From Octopus vulgaris (lineage: Eukaryota), in NCBI GenBank assembly GCA_951406725.2, contig OX597823.1, positions 82,646,001-82,710,000 of the forward strand: DNA of 64,000 nucleotides. Direction: 5' to 3'. Below, piece after piece: positions 1,661 through 62,631 of this stretch. Position 1 is the stretch's first letter. Each line of letters opens with the position of its first letter. The position numbers were made by a program, and so were the translations under genes. The notes beneath the pieces are model-generated. The model made no database searches. It was not told where the DNA came from and saw only the letters and a list, made by a program, of their open reading frames with translations.

Positions 1661-1869
1661 TTACGGAGATGTAATTGCATAGCAAGTGACCTGATATGAG
1701 ATCGTGTGCTGGAACGAAAACAATTGCAGCGTGGAAGATGTTTATAAGCCATTTAAGAAACACACAAAAACCCGTTAGATTTACTTCAACATTTAAATTT
1801 AATTTGCCAAAATATTTTCGCCGCTTTGAGACCACGACCTGTTTACTGAAAAAATTCAGTGCTGCATCT
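1661..1869 (-). mobile_element. Short dispersed repeat, probably Penelope-like (PLE)-derived, with degenerate G3:C8 hammerhead
   Basis: Reverse-complement homolog of 30876-31083 over ~205 bp; hammerhead fold at 1803-1853 with core GTAAACA. Confidence 0.7.
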
Positions 1870-2152
1870 CATGTTTGTATTAATTTGATAATTTTAGTAA
1901 TTTAGTAATTTGAAGACGATCGGATGTAATTTCAAGCAAATTTTGTGGTTATTCCTTGCTAACCAAGCTATCAGATTGAAGTCACTGTACTGATGATGGC
2001 CAGGATAACTGAGGGTGATAAGATGGTAGTCGGAAAAGTAGACTTACAATCTTACAGGTGTATGCGTGTATGTGTGCCTCAGTCTGTGTATATGTATGCA
2101 TGAATGATTCACACACACACGCACACATACTATATATATATATATATATATG

Positions 2153-2530
2153 CTAGCAGTATTGCCCGGCGTTGCTCTGGTTTGTTTCGACCCTTTAGAA
2201 TTGGAATTTTTGAAAAGTAAAAATTTTGCATTATGTAGCTTGTTATTCTCTTTAAGTGAACATTTTTCTGACTGAAATACACCGAAAGATGACACAGCAG
2301 TCAAAAAATCGTAAAAAATAGGGATTTTCATAGAAAAAAAGCACCATTTTGGTGTAACTAATTTTTGGTGTTAACATGGTCCGATTTGAATTTTGTTTCC
2401 TACGGAATGAAGAGCAAGCCTTCGTCTATCATACTTTCAATTTTGGTCAACTTGCGCCGCAGGGTTTTGGAGGAGATAGTGTTAGTTGAAGGCTATCAAA
2501 CCTGCCACACACAGACATCTTCAGCTTTAT
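2153..2530 (-). mobile_element. Non-autonomous Helitron-like element
   Basis: Terminal CTAG with adjacent GC-rich hairpin (CTAGCAGTATTGCCCGGCGTTGCTCTGG); other end runs into (TA)n; no TIR or TSD. Confidence 0.55.
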
Positions 2531-2611
2531 ATATATATATATATATATATATATATATATATAAAGGAGACAAACGCTCAGGATGTTGTTAATCCATTTA
2601 TATCATGAAGC

Positions 2612-2696
2612 CCTCTACATACGTTTCGACGGGGTGCACTCCGAAATGTCCGGCAGGATAAATAACGGTCAGCAGTACACCGATCTCTTCAGAAGG
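2612..2696 (-). ncRNA. Type I hammerhead ribozyme motif (C3:G8) in a TA-flanked PLE-like repeat (~2563-2820)
   Basis: Minus strand: CCTT-CTGAAGA-[GATCGGTGTAC...GTGCACCCCGTC stem II]-GAA-ACGTATGT-A-GAGG. Confidence 0.75.
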
Positions 2697-3379
2697 TTTA
2701 TGATAACAAGCTCATCAAATAAACATGTTATCATAGCTAAGAGTTGTTTTAACTCTTATTTAGCTACATAGTAATTGTTCTCTTGGATTTCTCCTATTAA
2801 TTATAAATTCGCTCTCTCTAATATATATATATATATATATATATATATATATATATATATATATATATATATACGGTTTAAGTAATTGAGATTCAAGTGA
2901 ATTCTAATGAATTCACATGAATATGGTCCTTAACTAGGATGCACCGGAAATCTATATGGTGTTAACCATACGACAAGTGGGGTGATTACAAATAGGAAAA
3001 ATCCATTCTTGTTGCTTTTTTGCTATATATATATAATTCATTAAGGTAGCTAGTCACTAATTGAGACAAAAATGCACAACTAAAACGCCACTAAAAGGGA
3101 CTAAAGGTGTAATAAGAGCTAAAACAATTCTTAGCCACAGACAGAACATTTTCTGTTACAAAAGCACTTATCGATCGACTAATAAGGCAAACAAGCTCCC
3201 TAAGCAAGCGAGGGCGTCATATCGAGATGATTTCGGATCAAATTAATCCTCCCTTGTCACTTGATAGATAAGTGCTTCTGTAACAGGAAATGTTCTGCTC
3301 CTGGCTAAGAGTTGTTTTAACTCTTATTTCTGGCAATGTTAGTGCTTACTTGCACCCTTCGTCACTTTAACTGACGTTT

Positions 3380-3870
3380 ATATACTTACATCCGTACATA
3401 CATACCTATATATTTGTATATATGTATGTATGTGCTCAACTAATTATATATATATATATTTACGTAAACAGATGCATATATGTGTGTGTATATATATATA
3501 TGTATATATATATAAACATATATATACATACATATATATATTCATATATATACATACATATATATATTCATATATATACGTACATATATATGCATATATA
3601 TATATATATATATATATGTATATATATATATAAACATATATGTGTATGTATACATGCATACATACATTATGCGTATATATATATATATACATACATACAT
3701 ACATATATATATATATATATATATATGTGTGTGTGTGTGTATACATACATATATATATATATACCACGCGCGCACATGTATGTGCGTTTGTATGAATATA
3801 TGTGTGTAAGTATATATGCATATACGTGTACATGTGTATGTATGTATGTATGTATGCATGTATATAATAT
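3380..3870. repeat. Compound (TA)/(TG)/(TACA) microsatellite field
   Basis: Direct reading; source of the YIYI ORFs. Confidence 0.95.
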
Positions 3871-4480
3871 TAAGGAATATGAGCCTAGGCATGCGATCAA
3901 CGAATAATTTATGAATAGCAAATGTACACAGATCTTATATCCTTATATTACAGTTAATCCAGTGCAAATTTTCTTTGCGTTTCTCTGACAGCCAGATACG
4001 TTTATTTCATATAATCTTCAACGGGTTAAAAGACCTATCAAACATAGATCAGGTACTAAGGTAAATAATAACAATTCATTACGTGATATTCAATATTTGT
4101 TTGGGATAATACTGGAACCTAAGTACCACTTACTATGTCAACAGGGATTTCACTTTATGGTTATGTATGTGTGCGTGTCTCTGTGTGTAGAATATGGTTA
4201 CGTAATACAATTATAGTGCATGAGTATATTTCAGTGAGTTTAAGTTTTATATTTTGTATTGTCTAACGTGTCAGGACATGCATACACTTATCCCTTTCTC
4301 TTATATTATCTCAAATAATATGCTCAGATGCTATATACTGCTTTCTCTCACATTTGCTAAGTGTGTATGTGTGATTCTCTCCGTCTGTGTACGTGTATGA
4401 ATGTATGCGAATATATATGGATGGAATATCTTTTCAGGGAATGTGGTTGATGGAAACAATGTGGAAATCCGTCGTGTATA

Positions 4481-59956: not shown

Positions 59957-60135
59957 AATAATAATAATAATAATAATAATAATAATAATAATAATAATAA
60001 TAATAATAATAATAATAATAATAATTATTATTATTATTATTATTATTATTATTACTATTATTATTATTATTATTATTATTATTATTATTATTATTATTAT
60101 TATTAATATTATTATTATTATTATTATTATTATAA
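59957..60135. repeat. (AAT)n followed directly by (ATT)n, a palindromic trinucleotide array
   Basis: Strand switch at ~60023. Confidence 0.95.
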
Positions 60136-60189
60136 TTTATTTATTTATTTTTATCTAGTTTCAGCTCACGAAAATGCGTGGGCTCAATG

Positions 60190-60402
60190 GTTTTAAATTT
60201 TGGCATAAAGCCAGCAATTTGTGGGGTGAGGTTAAGTCGATTAAAATGACCCCAGTGCTCAACTGGTACTTATTTTATCGACTCCGAAAGGATGGAAGTC
60301 AAAGTTAACCTCGGAAGAAGTTGAAATCAGAACGTAGCGACAGGCGAAATACCGCTGAGCTTTTCGCCCAGCATGCTTACGATTCTATCAACTGTCCGCC
60401 TT
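60190..60402 (-). mobile_element. SINE family B copy
   Basis: Core and head as in other copies. Confidence 0.85.
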
Positions 60403-61737
60403 TAATAATAATAGTGATGATAATCTGATTTTGGATTTGTATATCTTGGATATTAAACCTTCTTCTGTTGAACTAATGTGAAATATAAATAAAAGAAATG
60501 ACAATATAAGAATTGAATAGAGTAATCAAGTGAGAAAACACGAGAAGAATATTCCTAATATGATAACCATTTAAATGTTAGGAAAAGTTAATTTAATTTC
60601 TATACATTCAATTGATCTATCTCTATCTATGTATGACATCAGCATCTAATTGAATTAATGAGTGACTTGTAGTAAGGCTTGTTGATACACACGTTTGATA
60701 AAATGTTATGAATGCGTACAAGAATATCGATTCTTACGGAAAGGTAAATTATCGTAAAAACACTCCGAGATGCTGTGACTTCGAGGAAGAAATTATTGAC
60801 TTCTGGTCCGTTACATGAATAGAAGCTGATAAACCTGTTGGCTCTTTTAAGAGTAATGACCATACTTATAATAGTCACACGGTAAAGAACTGTCACTTAA
60901 TATTTTATGGCTATAAAACGATGTAATAATAATAACAATATACTTAAAGCTTTTAGATAATTTCAAATATGTTTGAGACATGTTTCACCTGTAAAAAGAC
61001 CAGATTGACTGCGTTTTTCCATGGGAAACGGTTCTTGCTATAGATAAAAAGCGTAAAAACCAAATCATTTCAGAACGGTCTCCGCACACCATCTATGGAC
61101 ATATATACATACATACGTACATACATACATACATACATACATACATACATACATACATACATACATACATACATACATACATACATACATGCATATGTAT
61201 ATACATACGTACATACAAACATATATACACACATATACATACATATACAGATATACACACATTTACATACATACATATACACACATATACAATCATGCAT
61301 ATACATCCATCCATACATACATATATATCAAGATATACATAAGTACGTGCTTAAATACAAACATACATACAAACACATACATACACAGATATGCACCCAT
61401 CCATCCATACACACATACATACATATATACTTATATACATACATACATACATACATACATACATACATACATACATACATACATGCATACATACACTGGG
61501 CTGGGTTCAGTAAAAGGAATCGTGTATATTACGAAAGCATAGGAACAAATACCTGCTTACCGACGTATAGACAGATCACTATTCCGGTTGTATATACGAT
61601 TAAGCGCACCCGATTAAGTATATTATGAGTCTCAAGGCTGTATTTAGGGACACACACTACACCAGTTGTACTGCGCTTAATAGACCCTTGATCCACGCTA
61701 ATAGCTGGTTCCGAATAAGGTACTTAATAAATAGATA

Positions 61738-62536
61738 ACAACAGATGGATAATTGTTCTTTCATTACAGCTGTTTCCAACGAATTATTTAATTGATGACT
61801 AAATATATTATATCACGTGAAAAAAGAAACCGTTTTCCTCAGGTGAATATGCACGAATTATGCATTTAGAACATTTCAAAAGTTACCAGTTTGTGCCACT
61901 TTCTGATTCCCCTTCTCAGATTAGTAGTTGATACGGAAAAAGCATTACAATGACAAGAAGAGCTCTTTTGGGTCTGAAACGGATCGGACAACAATTAGAG
62001 GAATAAAAAATAAAATTGCAAGAATGGCTTTATTTTCAAAGACAGGTCGTATAGCTAGCTATTCCAGGAATAAAAATATAAATAAAATGAATTAACCTTA
62101 TCTCACATGTCGGAACAGGATATCAGGGTCTCTCCCACTATTTTGTATCCTCCCCACTCACTTCTCACTTCTCTCATTATCTTTTAAGGTCATTTGTCTA
62201 GATCTATTTTATCCATTCTCTTAAAGATTATAGATTAAACATGATAACTTTGTCTTTTAGAAACTGTGCTGAAAATTATACCCTTTCCTCTAATATTTCT
62301 CCTACTATAAATGCTCTCCTCTCCTCGAAATGTGTTTTCTTATATTAACTACTAAACTGAGCAAGCGAATTTATTCTTTTAACTATTACTAGTCAGGTGA
62401 CTTTTGGAACGCTTCAAATGTGTTATTCGTGTATATTCTCCTGTGATTTTTTTTATCACATGATGTAGTATCTCTATTCATCAGCAGAAAATGCGTTGGA
62501 AACAGCTGTAGTGAATGAACCGTTATCCATCTGTTC
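61738..62536. mobile_element. PLE-like remnant bounded by diverged ~150-bp inverted repeats
   Basis: ~61738-61890 is the reverse complement of ~62395-62536; both arms carry hammerhead-like motifs. Confidence 0.7.
61760..61847 (-). ncRNA. Hammerhead motif (C3:G8) with long stem II insert
   Basis: Minus: TTCAC-CTGAGGA-A-AACG...CGTT-G-GAA-ACAGCTGT-A-ATGAA. Confidence 0.55.
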
Positions 62537-62594
62537 GTACCGTTGGCGATTTTTTTCCCTTCGTCTTCCCTTCTTTGGATCTTTCCTTTTCCTT

Positions 62595-62631
62595 TGTTTC
62601 TGACGAAGAGCTCCGCTCGAAACGTTAAACA
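62595..62631 (+). ncRNA. Canonical minimal type I hammerhead ribozyme in a TA-abutting PLE-like repeat (~62540-62725)
   Basis: TGTTT-CTGACGA-A-GAGC-tcc-GCTC-GAA-ACGT-T-AAACA. Confidence 0.82.

What the first reader, a model, noticed from the sequence alone, without database searches (positions are those of the whole stretch)
1803..62631. Minimal hammerhead ribozymes across several repeat families sample different 3:8 core base pairs
Seen: several short repeat families, many abutting (TA)n, carry the fold stem I - 7-nt core - stem II - GAA - palindromic stem III - H - stem I'. The cores are CTGAAGA (2612-2696, 44562-44602), CTGAGGA (61760-61847), CTGACGA (62595-62631), TTGAAAA (46595-46631), GTGAACA (30892-30941, decayed copy 1803-1853) and tentatively ATGAATA (2914-2961). 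Known: Penelope-like elements carry minimal hammerheads with palindromic stem III thought to act as dimers, and positions 3 and 8 form a Watson-Crick pair. Inference: covariation at 3:8 across families implies selection for catalysis and a large non-autonomous ribozyme-bearing retroelement system that CUGANGA-based searches would partly miss.
Basis: partly seen in the sequence, partly recalled or inferred. Interest (0 to 1): 0.85.

Follow-up and report, generated by a model that had tools for sequence, protein, structure and literature searches.

The report
Penelope hammerhead with flipped core pair
A young octopus retrotransposon family carries a hammerhead-shaped RNA motif whose usual C-G core pair is flipped to G-C, while related families have C-G or U-A, which likely means the self-cutting fold is still under selection, although cutting itself is untested.

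Summary
Mostly real, mostly known, with one apparently unreported variant. Of eight named sites, four are intact minimal type I hammerheads (2612, 30892, 46595, 62595) and three are decayed copies of real families (1803, 44562, 61760). One is rejected: 2914 (A3-U8) lies antisense to its element, has G17, and that element has its own canonical hammerhead. In 464 kb scanned with 3:8 left free, 11 of 11 hits pair (7 C-G, 3 U-A, 1 G-C; shuffles 0.6).

The G3-C8 family is not a separate non-autonomous element. It is the 3' end of a young Penelope-like element (1025-aa RT plus GIY-YIG frame, inverted pairs, one-sided tail, (TA)n targets). Its protein sister family has C3-G8 and a related family has U3-A8, with compensatory stem II changes.

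Natural U3-A8 is published. In the papers I could search, G3-C8 appears only as an engineered rescue; Lünse 2017 was unreadable. The scan noted a G3:C8 swap with an inserted base on other DNA (unchecked). Against strict catalytic selection: an active sister subfamily has C at position 9, and published work shows cleavage is not needed for insertion in vitro. Cleavage is untested.

The parts
30877..31082 (+). 5'-truncated 3' end of a young Penelope-like element (G3-C8 family), between (TA)n tracts; main 3' end at about 31022, optional 60-nt tail 31023-31082
30892..30941 (+). Minimal type I hammerhead with G3-C8 core: stem I 30892-98/30935-41, core 30899-30905, extra G 30906, stem II 30907-11/30920-24, GAA, palindrome 30928-33, U17 at 30934 (predicted cut 30934/30935)
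1660..1869 (-). Older-subfamily copy of the G3-C8 element; its hammerhead (1803-1853) is decayed (G5 lost, stem II mismatches)
46590..46786 (+). 3' end of the U3-A8 family with tail; hammerhead at 46595-46631 (3-bp stem I)
46487..46589 (-). Head-to-head inverted, truncated partner of the U3-A8 copy
2557..2729 (-). Copy of a C3-G8 family ending at (TA)n; intact hammerhead with long loop II at 2612-2696; parent ORF not found
62537..62724 (+). Copy of a C3-G8 family ending at (TA)n; intact hammerhead at 62595-62631; parent ORF not found
61666..61901 (-). Copy of an old C3-G8 family; hammerhead 61760-61847 partly decayed; a second, opposite-strand copy at 62396-62535 lacks an intact core
44538..44607 (-). 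Diverged copy of a C3-G8 family; hammerhead 44562-44602 with broken palindrome
2874..3001 (-). 3' tail of a very young Penelope-like element, running on the minus strand; the + strand A3-U8 candidate at 2914-2961 lies antisense in it and is rejected

Best explanation
The motifs are minimal type I hammerhead folds near the 3' ends of retrotransposon families, two of them traced here to Penelope-like RT + GIY-YIG elements, and the one at 30892-30941 has the core 3:8 pair flipped to G3-C8, likely because selection keeps the cleavage-competent fold rather than the base identities. SHOWN: the G3-C8 motif lies on the sense strand 1006 nt after the stop of a 1025-aa RT + GIY-YIG frame and about 150 nt before the element's 3' end. 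Copies are 5'-truncated, often in inverted pairs with a tail on one arm, and end at (TA)n. Related families carry C3-G8 or U3-A8. INFERRED: the element's protein nicks (TA)n DNA and reverse-transcribes uncleaved RNA from one of two internal start sites, so copies keep the whole hammerhead. The hammerhead would cut slowly, as a dimer through its palindromic stem III or with help from the element's protein, trimming long read-through or tandem transcripts. The 3:8 pair forms only in the active conformation, so a double change that restores it likely preserves some activity.
For: G3-C8 motif behind the ORF in L197, L199, L200, L201, L206 and L207. ORF has DKSG, RT motifs (YVDD), a C-x3-C-x2-C linker and a GIY-YIG-type C-terminus; its model matches RT folds including telomerase, weakly (E 3e-5 to 9e-4). 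Tail on one arm only in L197, L199 and L201. 650 exact matches to the upstream segment and 751 to an older subfamily, of which 89 of the first 100 listed keep G3-C8 and 0 have C3-G8. Protein sister P0001 (57% identity; 100/99 support) has C3-G8; 1645 matches with that stem II and A9, 79 of the first 100 listed C3-G8 (hand count). In 14 natural copies: 3:8 is CG 7, GC 4, UA 2, other 1, and two stem II pairs change on both sides. With N3 and N8 free, 11 of 11 hits pair. Metagenome relatives: C3-G8 in L228 and L230, U3-A8 in L229 and L232. C3G/G8C partly rescues a PLE hammerhead in vitro (PMC11167929).
Against: No cleavage data. The young P0001 subfamily, with several 1311-1312-aa frames, has C at core position 9 and an imperfect palindrome in 4 of 4 fetched copies, so an apparently active element tolerates a core change. 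PMC11167929 found hammerhead mutants do not alter insertion in vitro and no RNA-seq ends at the cut site. The covariation is few events (two changes at 3:8 in this clade; copies are not independent). The G family's 3' end gives no blastn hit to the sister or U families at E 0.01, so positional homology rests on the protein tree, location and shared stem II. Pfam gave no hit above cut-off for the ORF. Four C3-G8 families have no ORF link.
Confidence: 0.72

Rival explanations
1. The fold is kept for a non-catalytic job (binding the element's protein, positioning reverse-transcription start sites, or RNA dimerisation). The G3-C8 motif does not cut, and core changes reflect relaxed constraint.
For: C9 in the active P0001 subfamily and again in L229, a separate branch; U15.1-A16.1 in L228; genomic copies derive from uncleaved RNA; cleavage dispensable in vitro (PMC11167929); min-HHRs cleave poorly (PMC4209133).
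Against: The 3:8 pair is a feature of the active-state structure (PMC3884650), and it is restored in each multi-copy variant family found: 0 of 12 clusters with two or more copies has an unpaired majority core. U4, G5, A6 and GAAA are invariant in the 14-copy alignment, though those rows were picked by these motifs.
Confidence: 0.2
2. The short families form a dedicated non-autonomous, retrozyme-like system that spreads as ribozyme-processed monomers or circles.
For: Many G3-C8 copies are about 205 nt with a near-fixed 5' end at a TA (those loci were selected for query coverage). No ORF link for the four C3-G8 families. Retrozymes are described as non-autonomous PLE derivatives (bioRxiv 2026.07.22.740005).
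Against: The same sequence continues upstream into 3' UTR and ORF in hundreds of copies. Copies seen are dispersed or inverted, not head-to-tail monomer arrays, and their ends do not match the cleavage site. The 2876-3001 family is also an ORF-bearing element.
Confidence: 0.06
3. The G3-C8 fold is a chance look-alike amplified with a repeat.
For: Rfam has no hammerhead hit there, but none for the canonical 62595 copy either. Copy number adds no independent evidence.
Against: Folds as drawn (z -3.7); sits where the sister families' canonical hammerheads sit; 0.07 G-C hits per shuffled 464 kb.
Confidence: 0.02

Closest known systems
Minimal type I hammerheads (min-HHRs) of metazoan Penelope-like elements (Cervera & de la Peña 2014, PMC4209133; Lünse et al. 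2017, not readable here)
   Same: Type I layout, short stem I, extra base between 9 and 10.1, G10.1-C11.1, palindromic stem III, location at the PLE end, mostly solo truncated copies, several families per genome, and a U3-A8 family (about 1,300 hits in Schistosoma mansoni).
   Different: A G3-C8 core as the family norm is not in the main-text parts I read (1-2 of 4) nor in the 2 supplementary files searched (file 1 not searchable). Here three 3:8 pairs are mapped onto related families with a protein tree.
Natural hammerhead core variants (Perreault et al. 2011, PMC3088659)
   Same: Reports natural U3-A8 covariation and a U15.1-A16.1 variant, as seen here in the U family and in L228.
   Different: The passages seen name only U3-A8 at this pair; the figure itself is not held.
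PAc Poseidon element of Anolis (Frangieh et al. 2024, PMC11167929)
   Same: AT-rich targets, two internal RT start sites giving an optional tail, uncleaved RNA as template; C3G/G8C double mutant partly rescues cleavage, which needs the protein.
   Different: There G3-C8 is engineered and the hammerhead overlaps the ORF start; here it is natural and 1 kb downstream of the stop.
Neptune/Nematis-type EN+ PLEs (Craig et al. 2021, PMC8557442)
   Same: C-terminal GIY-YIG, DKG motif, CX2-5CxxC linker, CCHH residues, (TA)n targeting, inverted truncated copies, tail at one end.
   Different: Tail is about 60 nt here against 30-40 bp. Neptune rather than Nematis is my recall of the RT motif, not a tree with references.
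Non-LTR retrozymes (Cervera & de la Peña 2020, PMC7229834; bioRxiv 2026.07.22.740005)
   Same: Short hammerhead-bearing repeats related to PLE ends.
   Different: Retrozymes are non-coding tandem arrays; the G3-C8 copies seen are dispersed truncations of a coding element.

Membership tests
Minimal type I hammerhead of PLEs | Core U4 G5 A6, A9, G12 A13 A14, A15.1-U16.1, H17 | tested here: met
   Intact in 4 of 8 named sites, including 30892; decayed in 3; G17 in 2914.
Minimal type I hammerhead of PLEs | Watson-Crick pair between positions 3 and 8 | tested here: met
   11 of 11 hits; 104 of 111 hits (hand count).
Minimal type I hammerhead of PLEs | Canonical identities C3 and G8 | tested here: not met
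   G3-C8 at 30899/30904 and U3-A8 at 46598/46603; met in the four C3-G8 families. This makes the two a variant, not a non-member in function.
Minimal type I hammerhead of PLEs | Stem II with G10.1-C11.1 and an extra base after position 9 | tested here: met
   G-C in 14 of 14 aligned copies; extra base in all rows.
Minimal type I hammerhead of PLEs | Palindromic stem III allowing a dimer | tested here: met
   Sequence shows AAUAUU, AAUU, ACGU and an 8-mer with one G-U. The cofold did not form the stem III duplex for the G or U motif, so the dimer is by analogy only.
Minimal type I hammerhead of PLEs | Lies in the terminal repeat of a PLE, sense strand | tested here: inconclusive
   Met for G3-C8; indirect for U3-A8; no ORF found for the four C3-G8 families; not met for 2914 (antisense).
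Minimal type I hammerhead of PLEs | Self-cleavage after H17 | not testable with these tools
   Needs an assay; only contigs were available.
EN+ Penelope-like element (parent of the G3-C8 motif) | One ORF with RT, DKG motif and C-terminal GIY-YIG with CCHH residues | tested here: met
   1025-aa stop-to-stop frame in L206, motifs read from sequence; RT-fold matches. Pfam gave nothing above cut-off. The copy is 5'-truncated; no start codon or full-length copy was established.
EN+ Penelope-like element (parent of the G3-C8 motif) | 5' truncation, inverted/tandem partial copies, optional tail at one end, (TA)n targets | tested here: met
Neptune clade | CX2-5CxxC linker between RT and EN | tested here: met
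   C-x3-C-x2-C before the GIY-YIG motif; shared with Nematis per PMC8557442.
Neptune clade | Groups with reference Neptune RTs | not tested
   No labelled references on hand; the tree has none. The label is recalled.
Non-LTR retrozyme | Non-coding, head-to-tail tandem units each with a hammerhead | tested here: not met
   G3-C8 copies seen are dispersed or inverted and join an ORF. Not examined genome-wide, nor settled for the C3-G8 families.

The most novel reading that the evidence does not exclude
This is the first natural, family-wide G3-C8 hammerhead, and it is active. One branch of Penelope-like elements has run a natural mutational scan of the ribozyme core (C3-G8, U3-A8, G3-C8, C9 twice, U15.1-A16.1), tolerated because the element's own protein or dimer formation props up the fold, so standard descriptors undercount PLE ribozymes.
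Probability: 0.4. Interest if true: 0.62.

Novelty: new variant of a known kind. Interest (0 to 1): 0.45.

Why it matters
Why Penelope-like elements carry weak hammerheads is unresolved; Craig 2021 calls their function unclear and suggests they may simply parasitise PLEs. A two-transversion swap at a pair that forms only in the active state, fixed in a young, expanding family whose sisters have C3-G8 and U3-A8, is about the best sequence evidence available that the active conformation is selected. It also supplies a matched natural set (G3-C8, U3-A8, C3-G8 with A9 or C9, plus nearly intact proteins) for a direct assay. Practically, hammerhead searches should leave 3:8 free and pair-constrained.

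Tried and rejected
A3-U8 at 2914-2961: rejected (see observation check). A further A3-U8 hit at 25875-25940(-) is AT-rich with 3-bp stems and is treated as chance; I did not follow it up.

Rfam: the whole-window scan listed only microsatellite-driven miRNA matches among 150 shown of 221. Local scans found no hammerhead family for the G3-C8 or the canonical 62595 site. The repeat finder was swamped by microsatellites. My first descriptor allowed only A as the extra base and missed the G and U motifs.

Pfam and PDB sequence searches gave nothing significant for the ORF. Sequencing runs: no RNA holder listed; the four runs laid were contigs, which cannot show RNA ends. No core position varied at 5% or more in them, but that says little about selection.

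The DNA tree of 3' ends was mostly unresolved (1 of 15 branches starred), so no order of core changes is claimed from it. An idea that position 17 always avoids pairing with position 3 failed: two U3-A8 singletons have A17. Pairwise flank extension found no ORF link for the 2612, 44562, 61760 and 62595 families. Among 10 metagenome loci, 7 reach the ORF end: 4 show a hammerhead (L228 and L232 read by eye, not flagged by the script), 1 is doubtful (L234), 2 show none. Within-family conservation of G3-C8 is not counted as selection, since copies decay neutrally. Lünse 2017 and Arkhipova 2017 were not held.
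Full report
SETTING. The window lies in a 2.8-Gb, microsatellite-rich genome. A stretch of protein P0001, which its source names as from Octopus vulgaris, matches this genome at 100%, so I treat it as an octopus.

1. OBSERVATION. All eight stretches are present. Four are intact minimal type I hammerhead folds: 2612-2696(-) and 62595-62631(+) with C3-G8, 46595-46631(+) with U3-A8, and 30892-30941(+) with G3-C8. 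The last has a 7-bp stem I, an extra G, a 5-bp stem II, an AAUAUU palindrome and U17, and folds as drawn (z -3.7, 0 of 200 shuffles). Three are decayed copies of real families: 1803, 44562 and 61760. Each family has many copies: 748, 73, 929, 1002, 561 and 75 first-look candidates, 40 scored each.

The tentative A3-U8 site (2914-2961) fails. It belongs to a very young family (31 of 40 listed places identical over 126 nt). Its fixed end and (TA)n lie on the left, and its truncations and fold-backs on the right. In L136 and L120 the inverted arm carries an RT frame and a GIY-YIG C-terminus, which makes the window's minus strand the sense strand. The candidate is therefore antisense, and it also has G17 and a mismatched palindrome. 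The element has its own canonical CUGACGA hammerhead on the sense strand (cluster 3, 17 hits).

2. IS 3:8 PAIRING MORE THAN CHANCE? I scanned with N3 and N8 free. In the window plus 40 stretches of 10 kb taken at round coordinates (464 kb), there were 11 hits and all 11 pair: 7 C-G, 3 U-A, 1 G-C, 0 A-U, against 0.6 hits per shuffle in 15 shuffles. Three of the 11 are in the window, including the only G-C; one U-A hit has G17 and is doubtful. In 927 kb, which adds the search loci (8 overlapping loci left out), 111 hits formed 21 clusters: 13 C-G, 5 U-A, 1 G-C and 2 unpaired singletons. Six of the clusters were families I had fetched on purpose or their by-catch. Seven of 111 hits are unpaired, all single transitions from C-G. 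The descriptor fixes U4, G5, A6, A9 and GAAA, so it cannot see other core changes.

3. WHAT THE G3-C8 FAMILY IS. The window copy runs 30877-31082 between (TA)n tracts, and its top relatives are 96-98% identical. A segment just upstream has 650 exact matches. I fetched 6 clustered pairs; in 4 of the 6 (L197, L199, L200, L201) the motif lies downstream of an RT + GIY-YIG frame on the same strand. L206 holds a 1025-aa stop-to-stop frame with DKSG, YVDD, a C-x3-C-x2-C linker and the GIY-YIG/CCHH residues, and the core starts 1006 nt after the stop. Among 150 scored protein matches, identity ran from 84 to 100%. Pfam gave nothing above cut-off; the predicted model matched RT folds, telomerase among them, weakly. 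In L197, L199 and L201 one arm of the inverted pair ends at the main end and the other carries a 60-nt tail, the PLE signature described in PMC8557442. So the 205-nt units are best read as 5'-truncated ends of a coding element. No full-length copy was established. An older subfamily (751 matches) keeps G3-C8 in 89 of the first 100 listed and has C3-G8 in none (hand count).

4. RELATED FAMILIES. P0001 (57% identity) is the sister of the G3-C8 ORF in a 17-row protein tree without labelled references (100/99). Its 3' UTR motif has C3-G8, the same extra G and a stem II differing by one compensated pair, but C at position 9 in 4 of 4 copies. A pattern with that stem II and A9 has 1645 matches, 79 of the first 100 C3-G8, 10 U-G and 4 C-A (hand count); these include an A9 form of the P0001 family and a further family. 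The U3-A8 family's 3' end is 67% like that further family, and its UTR resembles the region after an ORF 42% identical to the G3-C8 protein, an indirect link. Across 14 natural copies the 3:8 pair is CG 7, GC 4, UA 2, other 1, and two stem II pairs change on both sides (0 of 500 shuffles). These rows are related, so this is about two events at 3:8, not 14. The G family gave no direct blastn hit to the others' 3' ends. Metagenome relatives of the ORF (10 loci) carry C3-G8 (L228, with U15.1-A16.1; L230) or U3-A8 (L229, with C9; L232) just after the ORF; L228 and L232 were read by eye, and L231 and L233 show none.

5. MECHANISM. Shown: position, strand, element anatomy and pairing. From PMC11167929 (parts 1-2 of 4 read): a PLE protein nicks AT-rich DNA, starts reverse transcription at two internal sites that define the tail, and uses unprocessed RNA. 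Its hammerhead cleaves only with the protein, single C3G or G8C mutants are dead, and the double mutant is partly rescued. Inferred: the same applies here, and the G3-C8 motif would cut slowly after U17 as a dimer or with protein help. The 3:8 pair belongs to the active-state structure (PMC3884650, passages), which is why its restoration argues for selection on that state. Against: C9 in an active subfamily, dispensability in vitro, few independent events, and a cofold that did not form the stem III duplex. I put the whole explanation at 0.72 and a non-catalytic fold at 0.2.

6. COMPARISON. PLE min-HHRs and a natural U3-A8 family are in PMC4209133 (parts 1-2 of 4 read; 2 supplementary files searched for GUGANCA forms with 0 hits, file 1 not searchable). 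Natural U3-A8 was first noted in PMC3088659 (passages). Full-text searches for G3-C8 wording returned only engineered uses (PMC3884650, PMC11167929, PMC8495972 passage) and the Cervera paper. A search for octopus + Penelope + hammerhead listed 4 papers; I read passages of one (PMC8557442) and saw only listings of the rest. The O. vulgaris repeat annotation PMC13282606 counts 31 recently active Penelope-like families and does not contain 'hammerhead' or 'ribozyme' in its main text (passages; supplement not seen). Lünse 2017 was not held; I know it only through a review (PMC6765202, passages and section 11 part 2), and it may include G3-C8. I also saw passages of PMC6155905, PMC7229834 and PMC10085705 and parts 1-2 of 5 of bioRxiv 2026.07.22.740005 (supplements closed). 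'Neptune' is my recalled label. Two earlier scan notes describe a G3:C8 swap with an inserted base behind a Penelope RT in another genome; I did not check them.

7. VERDICT. Real hammerheads of a known kind, three of four 3:8 pairs confirmed, the non-autonomous reading not supported for the families traced, and one apparently unreported natural G3-C8 family in a young coding element. New variant of a known kind; interest 0.45.

Noticed in passing
L202-L205 (3' UTR of the P0001 family); L229:2497: Core position 9 is C instead of A, followed by the extra G, in a very young family with several 1311-1312-aa frames, and again in a metagenome relative on another branch. It may be a tolerated variant or a loss of activity.
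   Followed up: partly
L228, about 90-135 nt after the ORF match end (4369): Hammerhead with C3-G8 but a flipped U15.1-A16.1 palindromic stem III, behind a relative of the same ORF.
   Followed up: no
window 2874-3023; L116-L140: Very young Penelope-like family with two fixed 3' ends about 119 nt apart (a long tail with several hairpins) and frequent perfect fold-backs.
   Followed up: partly
L136, inside the RT frame: A run of CCCTAA repeats interrupts the ORF between the RT and the GIY-YIG part.
   Followed up: no
window 2134-2530: A repeat between (TA)n tracts whose ends resemble Helitron-like non-autonomous elements (label recalled, not tested).
   Followed up: no
clusters 6-20 (e.g. L157, L173, L013, L007, L024, L038, L180): Fifteen further hammerhead clusters turned up as by-catch, many with 8-nt palindromes and long loop II. 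One U3-A8 hit (L024) lies downstream of a GIY-YIG fragment on the same strand.
   Followed up: partly
L177:3428-3582: Old, decayed sequence with a G3-C8 core and a stem II loop like the C3-G8 sisters; possibly a second G3-C8 lineage (weak profile match, E 0.014).
   Followed up: no
window 63576-63734: Hairpin-like stretch that drew weak plant miRNA matches on both strands; probably another inverted repeat.
   Followed up: no
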